Source: Candidatus Heimdallarchaeota archaeon
GTDB taxonomy: Archaea > Asgardarchaeota > Heimdallarchaeia > Hodarchaeales > Hodarchaeaceae
DNA: 49,755 nt
Assembly (NCBI GenBank): GCA_019057635.1
Contig: DXJL01000174.1
Location: 1-49,755 of the forward strand
Direction of reading: 5' to 3'
Shown here: piece by piece, positions 25,421 through 48,377 of the stretch
Layout: the number at the start of each line of letters is the position of its first letter
Position numbering within the stretch: the stretch's first letter is position 1
The notes under the pieces: model-generated
The model's database searches: none
The model's input: only the letters and a program-made list of their open reading frames with translations
Told to the model about the DNA's origin: nothing
Program-made: the position numbers and the translations under genes

Positions 25421-25523
25421 CGGGCCCTGTGAGATTTGAACTCACGACCTCTATTGAGGGATCATATAAGGAAAGATCCTTGCTCCGGAGGCAAGCGCTC
25501 TGTCCATGCTAAGCGAAGGGCCC
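25421..25523 (-). tRNA. tRNA-Arg(CCG) with 28-nt intron at about 41/42 (25453-25480)
   Basis: GGGCCCT/AGGGCCC acceptor, CTTGC-CTCCGGA-GCAAG anticodon arm, GTGAG-TTCAAAT-CTCAC T arm. Confidence 0.9.
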
Positions 25524-25727: not shown

Positions 25728-25835
25728 TGGCGGATCCGAGGGGATTTGAACCCCCGACCTGCGACTTAGAAGGCCGCCGCTCTTTCTAGAAGCTCTAACC
25801 ATGCAAAAGCTTTATCCTGGCTAAGCCACGGATCC
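25728..25835 (-). tRNA. tRNA-Arg(TCT), CCA encoded, D-loop intron about 20/21 (25784-25813)
   Basis: GGATCCG/CGGATCC-G-CCA; GCGGC-CTTCTAA-GTCGC anticodon arm. Confidence 0.92.
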
Positions 25836-46738: not shown

Positions 46739-47482
46739 TTATCGGAAGACGTCGTTTTCTGGTTCACGTATCAATTCACGGGCGGAATTATCATTGATTG
46801 AATAGACGACCCCTCTCACGATAATAACTGGTGTTCCTTCATCAGCTTGCCCCATAACCATTCCCGCAGCTGCAGCTACTTCATCAACTCTTGCTATAAT
46901 TGTAGATCTTAGTTCATAACCAAAAAGATCTTTCTTTCCACGAATATCTTCAATTGAGTTAATACCAGCTAGGCCAATGGCAAAATTAACTGTACCGACT
47001 CTCAAAGGACGCCCAAAAGTGTCAGAAATAATTACCGCAACATTCTTTTGTAATTTTTCTTGGATTTCATCTCTAATTTGACGGGCAGAAAAATCAGGAT
47101 CATCTGGAAGGGAAATAACAGTGTCTCCAGGGGTATTAGATTTATCTATTCCGCTATTCGCACAAATGAATCCATGATGGGTCGCAGTTATCAAGACTTT
47201 TTCATTCATTCTGATTATTTCACTGCTCTCACGTAAAATAACTTCAATTTTTCGCGGATCCTTTCCCTGCATCCTACCAATCTGAAGAGCAAAAGGACTG
47301 GGAGTAATCAGATTCAGATCATATACTTTATTCTCCGATTTTGAGACAATGGTATGCGCAATTACAATAATATCTCTATTCTGTAAATCTATCTTACGTA
47401 GCTCTTCTACAATTATCTCTACCAATGAATCACCAGGATTTATTAGTGGAAAATTTCTCAAAGGAAATATAGTTATCTTCAC
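46739..47482 (-). CDS. cofE: Coenzyme F420-0:L-glutamate ligase
   Basis: PLINPGD, VSKSE, ICANSGIDKSN, SDTFGRPLR, DLFG, GQADEGTP. Confidence 0.92.
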   Translation of the reverse strand: MKITIFPLRNFPLINPGDSLVEIIVEELRKIDLQNRDIIVIAHTIVSKSENKVYDLNLITPSPFALQIGRMQGKDPRKIEVILRESSEIIRMNEKVLITATHHGFICANSGIDKSNTPGDTVISLPDDPDFSARQIRDEIQEKLQKNVAVIISDTFGRPLRVGTVNFAIGLAGINSIEDIRGKKDLFGYELRSTIIARVDEVAAAAGMVMGQADEGTPVIIVRGVVYSINDNSARELIREPENDVFR

Positions 47483-47510
47483 TGGTGTTCAATTCCATTA
47501 AAAAGGAAAG

Positions 47511-47579
47511 TCAGCCTCAGACCGCTCATCGCTCTTCATATTGGTAATCTGTACCTTTTAACTAATCATCACTGGCTAA
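47511..47579 (-). ncRNA. Box C/D guide RNA; D guide complementary to the SSU rRNA decoding region (C1402 equivalent)
   Basis: 6-bp terminal stem TTAGCC/GGCTGA; C GTGATGA, D' CAGA, C' ATGAAGA, guide GCGATGAGCGGT, D CTGA. Confidence 0.85.
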
Positions 47580-47594
47580 ATTTATTCAGTCCTA

Positions 47595-48377
47595 TTATAC
47601 TCCAAATTCAGATGGACGAATTTTTACCTGCTCGGTCAGATCTTCTAAAAGTAATTTTACTTTTTCTGTTTGAGTCGTACTCCCCACTTTGACATATTTT
47701 TCATGAGCCTTAACTAAAAGATCTATTGCTTCTTTCATGTTTTCTCTTGCGCTAATGAGTGATTTAGCACGACTATATAACGCAAGAGCCTCATATCGAG
47801 TTACGTCTTCCCTACCCTTCTTGAATTCCTCAACAGCTCTTTCTAAAAAGTAAGCTTTGTCAAAATCTGATTCCATGGCTGCAGCGCGTTGTACAAAAGA
47901 ACGGGCGCGTGCCTTTGCTGCTTCCAATTCAAGTCCAGTCGTCGAATAAAGCGCACCCGCGGACTCAAATAAACGAGCAGATTCAATAAATTCACCATTT
48001 TTTGCCTTAAGTTTCGCTAATTCACCTTGAGTCTGAGCTTGAACCGTTCTTGCTTGTTTGGCCTCGTCTAAAAAACCCTCTGTCGAAAAAATTACGTTAG
48101 CTTTTCCAAAAGAGCGAATTGCTTCCAAAAAATTCGTTTCAATCATATCAGTGTACCCGTATGCACAGAGTCTGAACGCTTCGGCTCTTTTACTCAACTT
48201 TTTTTCATCCCCATCTTTGAAAAACTTTGTAGATTTCTTAAAATTCTCAACAGCCTCCTTATATCGTTGAGTTTCATAATAAGCCATGCCTTGATCGAAC
48301 TCTTTTTGACCTTTCTTAATTTTACTTCCCTTGAATAACACCATTAAGAGTAACTCCACAAATAAAGTAAAGCCCAT
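47595..48377 (-). CDS. TPR/alpha-solenoid protein, alpha-SNAP-like pattern (start possibly at MVLFKG)
   Basis: Repeated A..F..A...Y/F helical pairs (EAVENFKKS, SARLFESAGALY, AIDLLVKAHEKY). Confidence 0.65.
   Translation of the reverse strand: MGFTLFVELLLMVLFKGSKIKKGQKEFDQGMAYYETQRYKEAVENFKKSTKFFKDGDEKKLSKRAEAFRLCAYGYTDMIETNFLEAIRSFGKANVIFSTEGFLDEAKQARTVQAQTQGELAKLKAKNGEFIESARLFESAGALYSTTGLELEAAKARARSFVQRAAAMESDFDKAYFLERAVEEFKKGREDVTRYEALALYSRAKSLISARENMKEAIDLLVKAHEKYVKVGSTTQTEKVKLLLEDLTEQVKIRPSEFGV

What the first reader, a model, noticed from the sequence alone, without database searches (positions are those of the whole stretch)
47511..47579. C/D guide for decoding-centre C1402 (snR70/U43 equivalent), implying a variant 16S sequence
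Seen: textbook boxes and a 6-bp terminal stem. The guide GCGAUGAGCGGU complements ACCGC(U)C(A/G)UCGC, close to the near-universal ACCGCCCGUC. D+5 is E. coli C1402, equivalent to yeast Cm1639/human Cm1703, a site bacteria modify with the protein RsmI. The guide A opposite position 1403 means either a tolerated mismatch next to the target or a C1403U change in this organism's 16S. The trailing GC matches the eukaryote-like GUCGC.
Basis: partly seen in the sequence, partly recalled or inferred. Interest (0 to 1): 0.75.

Follow-up and report, generated by a model that had tools for sequence, protein, structure and literature searches.

The report
Archaeal methylation guide RNA for 16S C1402
This is a real small guide RNA of an Asgard archaeon that most likely directs a sugar methylation at a universally modified base in the ribosome's decoding centre, and it carries one conserved mispair beside the target rather than signalling an unusual ribosomal RNA.

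Summary
It is a genuine box C/D sRNA. 21 of 22 genomes of the genus carry it at the same locus, with guide positions 1-11, the D box and the following GG invariant. In contrast, 0 of 30 other columns are invariant. Fibrillarin, Nop5 and L7Ae are encoded; RsmI and RsmH were not found.

The own assembly has no 16S. Three same-genus 16S genes read ACCGCCCGUCGC, one of them on the same contig as the sRNA. The guide therefore pairs with 1398-1409 through 10 Watson-Crick pairs, one G.U (1405) and one A.C (1403). C1402 sits at N+5. The "variant 16S" reading is not supported.

C/D sRNAs with the matching guide GAUGGGCGGU occur in Thermococci, Methanofastidiosia, DPANN and other Asgard lineages. Micrarchaeota-labelled genomes fix a U at the same N+6 position against an unchanged C1403.

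Complementarity alone is weak evidence (223 of 1500 shuffles do as well). Conservation and the guide family carry the case. Methylation and expression are untested. This is a new member of a known kind, with an interesting fixed mismatch.

The parts
47574..47579 (-). 5' strand of the terminal stem (UUAGCC)
   Evidence: It pairs with 47516-47511. The inner 4 bp (AGCC/GGCU) are kept in the genus, with U-A in 2 genomes and G.U in 2.
47566..47572 (-). C box GUGAUGA
   Evidence: 6 of 7 columns are invariant in 21 genus homologues. The consensus RUGAUGA is quoted in PMC4644070.
47552..47565 (-). D' spacer/guide UUAGUUAAAAGGUA (14 nt), no target found
   Evidence: It is variable in the genus, with about 7 different versions. 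No rRNA site with <=1 mismatch was found in genus 16S or 23S pieces.
47548..47551 (-). D' box CAGA
   Evidence: The same position reads CUGA in G004 and G011.
47533..47538 (-). C' box UGAAGA (preceded by A47539)
   Evidence: It reads UGAUGA in most genus members, and UGUUGA, UGAUUU or UGAUAU in others.
47521..47532 (-). D guide GCGAUGAGCGGU. Positions 1-11 counted from the D box (47521-47531) are invariant in the genus. A47526 (N+6) faces C1403, U47528 (N+8) faces G1405 and G47525 (N+5) faces C1402.
   Evidence: Pairing to the same-genus 16S sequence ACCGCCCGUCGC is shown.
47517..47520 (-). D box CUGA
   Evidence: Invariant in 21 of 21.
47511..47516 (-). 3' strand of the terminal stem (GGCUGA)
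47501..47510 (-). T-rich tract CUUUCCUUUUU just after the stem, a possible archaeal oligo-T terminator (inference only)
   Evidence: Sequence. Not tested.
47595..48377 (-). Context: upstream gene, a 260-aa protein with weak TPR hits
   Evidence: It is a syntenic neighbour in 20 of 20 genus loci.
46739..47482 (-). Context: downstream gene, an F420-0:gamma-glutamyl ligase (CofE family), whose start lies 28 nt after the sRNA end
   Evidence: PF01996, E 5.9e-78. It is a syntenic neighbour in 20 of 20 genus loci.

Best explanation
A 69-nt archaeal box C/D sRNA is transcribed from the minus strand. Its C/D and C'/D' motifs are expected to fold into k-turn and k-loop and to bind L7Ae, Nop5 and fibrillarin. 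Its D guide pairs with 16S rRNA 1398-1408(9) at the top of helix 44. This places C1402, opposite the 5th guide base from box D, in the fibrillarin active site for 2'-O-methylation. That is the site bacteria methylate with RsmI and eukaryotes with a C/D snoRNP. The duplex holds a G.U at 1405, which is the common state of this guide family, and an A.C mispair at 1403 (N+6). The mispair is fixed in this genus and tolerated, and possibly selected. Extra pairs to G1408 (and to C1409 in the own subclade) partly make up for it. Shown here: the anatomy, orthology, conservation, complementarity, the protein machinery and the guide family. Inferred: RNP assembly, expression, and that methylation takes place.
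For: 1. Anatomy: textbook boxes with stem-A-GUGAUGA ... CUGA-stem spacing.
2. Orthology: 21 of 22 genus genomes carry one copy each. In 20 of 20 relatives it lies between the same two genes on the same strand, while the flanking proteins fall to 69-72% identity.
3. Selection: CGAUGAGCGGU-CUGA-GG is invariant, 11 of 12 guide columns are invariant, and 0 of 30 other columns are. A strain-level contig in run X5 differs at 47510, 47561, 47584 and 47589, but not in the boxes or the guide.
4. Target: the same-genus 16S genes that were read show ACCGCCCGUCGC (3 of 3). That gives 10 WC pairs, 1 G.U and 1 A.C, with a WC pair at N+5. This is within the rule of 1 mismatch plus 2 G.U used in PMC4644070 (passages). 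Predicted duplex energy is -19.4 kcal/mol, against -26.3 for the G variant.
5. Guide family: real C/D sRNAs with GAUGGGCGGU-CUGA, which pairs fully to 1398-1407 with one G.U, occur in 11 genomes of a sister Heimdall genus, in 2 Odin-labelled genomes, and in 31 archaeal records labelled Thermococci, Methanofastidiosia, Theionarchaea, Aenigmat-, Iain- and Nanohalarchaeota, Undinarchaeales, Thermoplasmata and others. GACGGGCGGU occurs in 2 records.
6. Covariation at guide position 11: it is C opposite G1408 here, and U opposite A1408 in Micrarchaeota-labelled genomes.
7. No better target: the perfect 11-mer complement occurs in 22 genus genomes only as the gene's own antisense (21 places) plus 6 unconserved coding-like places, against 12 control hits. 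No hit with <=1 substitution other than the gene itself and 2 non-RNA places exists in the own genome. There is none in the tRNAs, and none with <=1 mismatch in genus 23S pieces.
8. Machinery: a fibrillarin and Nop5 operon and 2 L7Ae-family genes are present. RsmI (TIGR00096) and RsmH (PF01795) were not found in a 91.6%-complete genome.
9. Precedent: Cm at this site is listed for P. abyssi (Cm1369; table 2 of PMC11542601) and was measured in N. equitans (PMC5389701 passage). In human rRNA, internal A-C mismatches are reported at fully methylated sites (PMC5027482 passage).
10. A second lineage: 14 Micrarchaeota-labelled records fix a U at the same N+6 position, and 3 of 3 of their genomes with a 16S 3' end keep C1403.
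Against: The own genome's 16S is missing, so pairing is shown only against relatives. The match quality is not significant by itself: 223 of 1500 shuffled guides do as well, and the real guide has a second equal-quality site in the 16S of G002 and G008 (ACCGCUAAUUGC). That site is lost in G016. The mispair lies directly beside the target nucleotide. From recall only (Appel & Maxwell 2007 and Cavaille & Bachellerie 1998, neither held in the library), mismatches near the site can lower activity. There is no expression or methylation data for this lineage. The D' half has no target, and its 14-nt spacer departs from the archaeal norm of about 12 nt (PMC7229835 passage). No Rfam family reaches its gathering score.
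Confidence: 0.7

Rival explanations
1. Pairing without methylation. The sRNP still binds 16S 1398-1408 during small-subunit assembly, acting as a folding chaperone or checkpoint at the top of helix 44. The mispair beside C1402 prevents or strongly reduces methyl transfer.
For: The mismatch is at N+6, next to the target. Dennis et al. propose chaperone roles for guides whose pairing is imperfect (PMC4644070 passages). The guide is conserved, which any pairing function would explain.
Against: The N+5 pair itself is Watson-Crick. The published 'no methylation' cases have the mismatch at the target pair itself. D box, C box and k-turn geometry are invariant. Internal A-C mismatches at fully methylated human sites are on record. 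No RsmI that could otherwise make Cm1402 was found.
Confidence: 0.13
2. The true target is another RNA that carries a perfect ACCGCUCAUCG site. Examples would be an unassembled rRNA spacer, an rRNA expansion segment or another non-coding RNA. On this view the likeness to 16S 1398-1408 is secondary.
For: The A is invariant in 21 species, as if it paired with a U. rRNA operons are poorly assembled in these MAGs: 16S was found in 4 of 21 genus relatives and 23S pieces in 8 of 21. Complementarity to 16S alone is not significant.
Against: No conserved perfect site exists in 22 genus genomes. There is none in the 16S loci with 1.5-kb flanks, nor in 23S pieces that together span the model. Other archaea carry the same guide with G at that position, matching 16S exactly. 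Micrarchaeota-labelled genomes show a different non-pairing base at the same position against an unchanged 16S.
Confidence: 0.08
3. The organism's own 16S has U at 1403 (and perhaps A at 1405), so the guide is a perfect match.
For: The own 16S is not in the assembly, so it cannot be read directly. The guide is a perfect complement of such a variant.
Against: 3 of 3 same-genus 16S genes read have C1403 and G1405 with the identical guide in the same genomes. This includes G002, whose sRNA locus is 97% identical to the window, and G008, where both genes lie on one contig. All 11 Asgard 16S loci and 3 Micrarchaeota-labelled ones read ACCGCCCGUC.
Confidence: 0.03
4. A chance box-like sequence or a decaying pseudo-guide with no function.
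For: No Rfam match reaches its gathering score. The D' half is orphan. There is no expression evidence.
Against: Syntenic conservation in 21 of 22 genomes with a 17-nt invariant block amid saturated flanks.
Confidence: 0.02

Closest known systems
Archaeal box C/D sRNAs (Rfam snoPyro_CD RF00095, sR2 RF01139 and similar)
   Same: C, D', C' and D boxes, a 12-nt D spacer, a short terminal stem, an intergenic gene of about 60-70 nt, and a genome that encodes L7Ae, Nop5 and fibrillarin. These families give the best sub-threshold Rfam hits on the locus and on its relatives in other archaea.
   Different: No family reaches its gathering score (sR2 scores 17.6 bits against a threshold of 42). The D' spacer is 14 nt. 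The D' box is CAGA and the C' box is UGAAGA.
Archaeal guides for the C1402 site: GAUGGGCGGU-type sRNAs found here in Thermococci-, Methanofastidiosia-, DPANN- and Asgard-labelled genomes. Cm1369 is listed for P. abyssi and Cm1402 was measured in N. equitans.
   Same: Same D-guide register, the same target nucleotide at N+5, and the same G.U at 1405. The site is reported as methylated in archaea (PMC11542601 table 2; PMC5389701 passage).
   Different: A instead of G at N+6, found in real C/D context only in this genus. All 12 A-type archaeal hits are identical to genus loci. The D' guides differ, and there is no synteny with the Heimdall or Odin copies (0 of 15 loci). I did not identify which published Pyrococcus sRNA guides Cm1369.
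Micrarchaeota-type C1402 guide (GACGUGCGGU-CUGA), seen here
   Same: A fixed non-pairing base at exactly N+6, opposite an unchanged C1403.
   Different: U rather than A. It has C (a G-C pair) at N+8 in 13 of 14 records. Guide positions 11-12 pair with A1408 and A1409.
Eukaryotic snR70 / SNORD43 (U43) snoRNAs
   Same: They guide 2'-O-methylation of the homologous 18S cytidine: yeast Cm1639, human Cm1703, and Arabidopsis Cm1645 by AtU43 (PMC11542601 tables). The snR70 assignment is recalled.
   Different: No detectable sequence or structure match in the Rfam scan. Eukaryotic spacers are longer (PMC7229835 passage). Common descent is not shown.
Bacterial RsmI (with RsmH), protein-only m4Cm1402 formation
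   Same: Same nucleotide and the same chemical mark on the ribose (PMC11542601 passage).
   Different: A stand-alone enzyme with no guide RNA. Neither TIGR00096 nor PF01795 was found in this genome.

Membership tests
Box C/D sRNA (archaeal methylation guide) | C box RUGAUGA near the 5' end and D box CUGA near the 3' end | tested here: met
   GUGAUGA at 47572-47566 and CUGA at 47520-17. Conserved in 21 of 21.
Box C/D sRNA (archaeal methylation guide) | Terminal stem that closes the C/D k-turn | tested here: met
   6 bp here. The inner 4 bp pair in 18-21 of 21 sequences, with 2 U-A swaps and 2 G.U. The covariation score is reached by 2 of 500 shuffles.
Box C/D sRNA (archaeal methylation guide) | Internal D' and C' boxes with spacers of about 12 nt | tested here: inconclusive
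   D' is CAGA and C' is UGAAGA, both accepted variants. The D spacer is 12 nt, but the D' spacer is 14 nt in this subclade, against 12 nt in most of the genus.
Box C/D sRNA (archaeal methylation guide) | Core proteins L7Ae, Nop5 and fibrillarin encoded by the organism | tested here: met
   PF01269 at 270 bits and PF01798 at 226 bits lie adjacent on contig C82. PF01248 has two hits.
Box C/D sRNA (archaeal methylation guide) | Expressed as a stable small RNA | not testable with these tools
   The one RNA run found is a polyA library held as contigs. It needs small-RNA sequencing.
Box C/D sRNA (archaeal methylation guide) | Match to a curated Rfam C/D family at its gathering score | tested here: not met
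   This is usual for fast-evolving archaeal sRNAs and is not a defining biological feature.
Guide for 16S C1402 (E. coli numbering) | Watson-Crick pair at N+5 with C1402 inside a duplex of >=9-10 bp with at most 1 mismatch and 2 G.U | tested here: met
   G47525 pairs with C1402. The duplex has 10 WC pairs, 1 G.U and 1 A.C over 12 nt against same-genus 16S. The rule comes from PMC4644070.
Guide for 16S C1402 (E. coli numbering) | Uninterrupted complementarity around the target | tested here: not met
   A.C at N+6.
Guide for 16S C1402 (E. coli numbering) | Relatives with the same guide register aimed at the same site | tested here: met
   GAUGGGCGGU-, GACGGGCGGU- and GACGUGCGGU-type sRNAs in many archaeal lineages.
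Guide for 16S C1402 (E. coli numbering) | C1402 actually 2'-O-methylated in this organism | not testable with these tools
   Needs RiboMeth-seq or an equivalent method.
Rfam SNORD43 / snR70 | Covariance-model match | tested here: not met
   Neither name is among the 13 matches at E <= 10 on 47400-47700.

The most novel reading that the evidence does not exclude
The non-pairing base opposite C1403 is selected rather than merely tolerated. Two distant archaeal lineages have independently fixed a mispair at exactly N+6 of the C1402 guide: A in 21 species of this Asgard genus, and U in 14 Micrarchaeota-labelled genomes. Their 16S is unchanged, and neither lineage shows within-lineage variation at that base. 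This would mean that leaving C1403 unpaired, or loosening the GGG:CCC core, serves a function at the decoding centre. Possible functions are restricting methylation to C1402, tuning its level, or easing release of the sRNP from pre-16S rRNA.
Probability: 0.3. Interest if true: 0.55.

Novelty: new member of a known kind. Interest (0 to 1): 0.4.

Why it matters
C1402 is one of the very few rRNA riboses methylated in all three domains. Bacteria do it with a dedicated protein, eukaryotes with a snoRNP. This element shows that an Asgard lineage labelled Heimdall/Hodarchaeota in public records does it, most likely, the RNA-guided way. It does so with a guide that belongs to a family spread across Archaea. 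In this genome, only two loci pass a strict C/D filter. They aim at the two universally methylated sites: this one, and the 23S P-loop site that is probably G2251. For the field, the useful point is the fixed mispair next to the target, seen in two lineages. It is a natural experiment on how much pairing a C/D RNP needs beside the methylated nucleotide. It also warns against inferring rRNA sequence variants from guide sequences.

Tried and rejected
1. Rfam at gathering threshold found only two tRNAs in the window and nothing at the locus.

2. A target for the own D' guide was not found. No site with <=1 mismatch exists in genus 16S or 23S pieces. For the genus-majority D' guide CAGCUUAGGGAA, hits with <=1 mismatch in 22 genomes are at control level, and the exact hits listed are the sRNA genes themselves plus one chance place.

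3. A better target for the D guide was not found. I checked the own genome, the 22 genus genomes, the tRNAs (though only 20 tRNA sequences were parsed, so the set is incomplete) and the rRNA pieces. A first version of the scan timed out.

4. ACCGCCCAUC, which would turn the family's G.U into a U-A pair, is absent from all rRNA loci held.

5. Expression could not be assessed. One RNA run (X19, a polyA metatranscriptome held as contigs) lays a single 200-nt contig on 47670-47869, inside the upstream gene. It gives no cover of the sRNA, which says nothing either way.

6. Synteny outside the genus is absent. There was no CofE or TPR hit beside 15 loci of other families. No C/D sRNA lies upstream of CofE in the two sister-family genomes. 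G005 lacks the orthologous locus: its best CofE hit is 37% identical and the genome is 74% complete.

7. The full-length 23S of G001:C57 (L014) shows no megablast similarity to the other genus 23S pieces. It may be foreign to the bin. It was scanned anyway.

8. 19 of the 53 places from the phylum pattern scan have no C box and read like coding DNA. They are counted as chance, in line with about 10 control hits.

9. Several papers are not held: Appel & Maxwell 2007, Yang et al. 2016 and Omer et al. 2006. What I say of them is recalled.

10. One library search for Asgard C/D sRNAs (terms Asgard, fibrillarin, sRNA, Heimdallarchaeota) listed no paper on the subject. This is not proof that none exists.

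11. Earlier findings of this scan had nothing to show.

Full report
**Observation**

Read on the minus strand, 47579-47511 has this layout:
- UUAGCC, the 5' strand of the terminal stem
- A
- GUGAUGA, the C box
- UUAGUUAAAAGGUA, the D' spacer
- CAGA, the D' box
- UUACCAAUA, a spacer
- UGAAGA, the C' box
- GCGAUGAGCGGU, the D guide
- CUGA, the D box
- GGCUGA, the 3' strand of the stem

The stem has 6 bp, one of them G.U. One nucleotide plus the first two C-box bases lie between the stem and the sheared G.A pairs. That is the usual k-turn layout, which I recall rather than tested.

The element fills most of a 112-nt gap between two minus-strand ORFs. Upstream is a 260-aa protein with weak TPR hits. 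Downstream is a CofE-type F420-0:gamma-glutamyl ligase. Rfam gives nothing at its gathering scores. At E <= 10 it lists 13 weak matches, 12 of them on this element and all of them C/D families. None is named SNORD43 or snR70.

**Organism and machinery**

The window is contig C152 of a 3.19-Mb assembly of 214 contigs. The assembly is 91.6% complete with 36% G+C.

Public records that carry identical copies of the genus sRNA are titled Candidatus Heimdallarchaeota, Hodarchaeota, Hermodarchaeota or Promethearchaeota archaeon. The lineage is therefore an Asgard archaeon of the Heimdall/Hod group.

The genome encodes fibrillarin next to Nop5, and two L7Ae-family proteins. RsmI and RsmH models find nothing. 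With an incomplete genome, that is "not found" and not "absent".

**Is it a real gene?**

A BLAST of the 101-nt region against 40 relatives, followed by a motif search, recovers one copy in 21 of 22 genus genomes. The missing genome, G005, is 74% complete and lacks the orthologous locus.

In 20 of 20 relatives the copy lies between the same two genes on the same strand. Those proteins have diverged to 69-72% identity.

In the 21-sequence alignment the invariant columns fall in four places:
- GCC of the stem
- UGAUGA of the C box
- UG of the C' box
- an unbroken 17-column block, CGAUGAGCGGU-CUGA-GG

By class, 11 of 12 D-guide columns are invariant, against 0 of 30 columns of the D' spacer, D' box, linkers and flanks.

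The inner four stem pairs are kept, with two U-A swaps and two G.U.

The homologues were first found through the conserved block itself, so the set is ascertained on it. Synteny and the single copy per genome argue that they are the orthologues.

A related strain in metagenome run X5 differs at 47510, 47561, 47584 and 47589, but not in the boxes or the guide.

**Target**

The own assembly has no 16S, and only a 3' piece of 23S. 16S was found in 4 of 21 genus relatives.

The three 16S genes read through the site (G002, G016, G008) show CACACACCGCCCGUCGCAGC. In G008 the 16S and the sRNA lie on the same contig.

Against this sequence the guide pairs as follows:

| Guide position (from D box) | Guide base | 16S base | Pair type |
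|---|---|---|---|
| 1 | U | A1398 | WC |
| 2 | G | C1399 | WC |
| 3 | G | C1400 | WC |
| 4 | C | G1401 | WC |
| 5 | G | C1402 | WC (target) |
| 6 | A | C1403 | mismatch |
| 7 | G | C1404 | WC |
| 8 | U | G1405 | wobble |
| 9 | A | U1406 | WC |
| 10 | G | C1407 | WC |
| 11 | C | G1408 | WC |
| 12 | G | C1409 | WC |

The numbering was checked on an E. coli rrs copy. There the motif starts one position lower because that copy has 1541 nt. The standard numbering is recalled.

The predicted duplex energy is -19.4 kcal/mol. It would be -26.3 with G at N+6, and -28.1 for a perfect guide.

**How strong is the target call?**

On complementarity alone it is weak. 223 of 1500 shuffled 11-mers find an rRNA site of equal quality. 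The real guide has a second such site in a variable 16S region of G002 and G008, which is lost in G016.

Three other lines carry the assignment.

First, no better target exists in what is assembled:
- The perfect 11-mer complement occurs in the 22 genus genomes only as the gene's own antisense (21 places) plus 6 unconserved, coding-like places. The reversed control gives 12.
- The own genome has no other RNA-like hit with <=1 substitution.
- tRNAs give nothing better than 2 mismatches plus 2 G.U.
- 23S pieces that together span the model give nothing with <=1 mismatch.

Second, the same guide register exists elsewhere with the pairing base:
- GAUGGGCGGU-CUGA sits in clear C/D sRNAs of 11 genomes of a sister Heimdall genus and 2 Odin-labelled genomes.
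- In a scan of one genome per prokaryotic species with a canonical C' box, 44 of 48 hits are archaeal. Of those, 31 read GAUGGGCGGU, 12 read GAUGAGCGGU and 1 reads GACGGGCGGU. The 4 bacterial hits have no C box.
- The 31 GAUGGGCGGU records are labelled Thermococci, Methanofastidiosia, Theionarchaea, Methanomicrobia, Thermoplasmata, Aenigmat-, Iain- and Nanohalarchaeota, Undinarchaeales and others.
- All 12 GAUGAGCGGU hits are identical to genus loci. The single GACGGGCGGU hit is Micrarchaeota-labelled.
- 19 of the 53 places of the phylum scan lack C boxes and are taken as chance.

Third, guide position 11 covaries with 16S position 1408. It is C opposite G1408 here, and U opposite A1408 in Micrarchaeota-labelled genomes.

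**The mismatch**

The A at N+6 is invariant in 21 species while their 16S keeps C1403. It remains untested only for the window's own missing 16S.

Pyrimidines at N+6 turn up in 14 Micrarchaeota-labelled records: 13 read GACGUGCGGU and 1 reads GAUGUGCGGU. 3 of 3 of their genomes that hold a 16S 3' end read ACCGCCCGUCAA. This is a second lineage with a fixed mispair at the same place.

The collection scans fixed all other guide bases. I therefore cannot say that N+6 is the only variable position across Archaea. I can say that it is non-pairing in two lineages and invariant within each.

In human rRNA, internal A-C mismatches (snoRD62A/B, snoRD79) are reported at fully methylated sites (PMC5027482 passage). 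So a mispair inside the duplex does not by itself rule out methylation.

Whether the A is merely tolerated or is selected is open. Possible reasons for selection are a weaker GGG:CCC core, easier release, or keeping C1403 out of reach. Its invariance amid saturated neighbours favours some constraint.

**What is known**

2'-O-methylation at this cytidine is listed for E. coli (by RsmI), yeast, human, plants and P. abyssi (Cm1369) in PMC11542601 (tables). It was measured in N. equitans (PMC5389701 passage).

Dennis et al. found helix-44 predictions sparse in seven species, and the passages read do not mention 1402.

One library search returned no paper on Asgard C/D sRNAs.

The element is thus a new member of a known class aimed at a known site. 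The fixed N+6 mispair and its parallel in Micrarchaeota are the new details.

**Verdict**

This is a real, conserved box C/D sRNA. It most likely guides Cm1402 in 16S rRNA (confidence 0.7). The "variant 16S" implication is not supported. Expression and methylation remain to be shown.

Noticed in passing
own genome G000, contig C200:1192-1242 (+), outside the window: A second textbook C/D sRNA. Its D guide CACCGUCCCAGU pairs, with no mismatch and one G.U over 11 nt, with the 23S P-loop ACUGGGGCGGU of a genus 23S. N+5 falls on the second G of GGGG, which is probably E. coli G2251, but the offset of the E. coli copy was not resolved. Only these two loci pass a strict C/D filter in the genome.
   Followed up: partly
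G000:C70:9958-10264 (L013), and similar places in G001, G002, G003, G008, G011 and G013: Copies of about 310 nt of the 23S 3' end (Rfam LSU model positions 2721-2973) lie apart from the rest of 23S. There are one or two per genome, one of them at about position 515,000 of its contig. They could be a split 23S gene, a duplicated terminal domain or something else. Unexplained.
   Followed up: no
L303-L320 (Micrarchaeota-labelled records) and L321, L322, L325 (their 16S): C/D sRNAs with D guide GACGUGCGGU-CUGA put a U opposite the unchanged C1403. Several have a long insert between the D' and C' boxes.
   Followed up: partly
L254-L300 (archaeal records): U opposite G1405 (a G.U at N+8) is the state in 43 of 44 archaeal C1402-guide hits, 12 of which are the own genus. 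ACCGCCCAUC, which would pair with it perfectly, is absent from all rRNA loci held. The Thermococci/Methanofastidiosia type also shares a D' guide (C)CGACAGCGU. Its complement occurs near the 3' end of the own 23S fragment.
   Followed up: partly
window 25421-25523 and about 25728-25835, minus strand: Two intron-bearing tRNA genes. Rfam tRNA hits span 103 nt and 56 nt, and aragorn calls them Pro(tgg) and Arg(tct).
   Followed up: no
G008:C9:1695-3919 (L008): The 16S model of 1478 positions spans 2225 nt here. This 16S gene therefore carries about 750 nt of insertion, either an intron or an expansion.
   Followed up: no
G001:C57:307-3242 (L014): A full-length 23S in this bin has no megablast similarity to the other genus 23S pieces, while a partial genus-type 23S sits on another contig of the same bin. 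It is possibly foreign DNA in the bin.
   Followed up: partly
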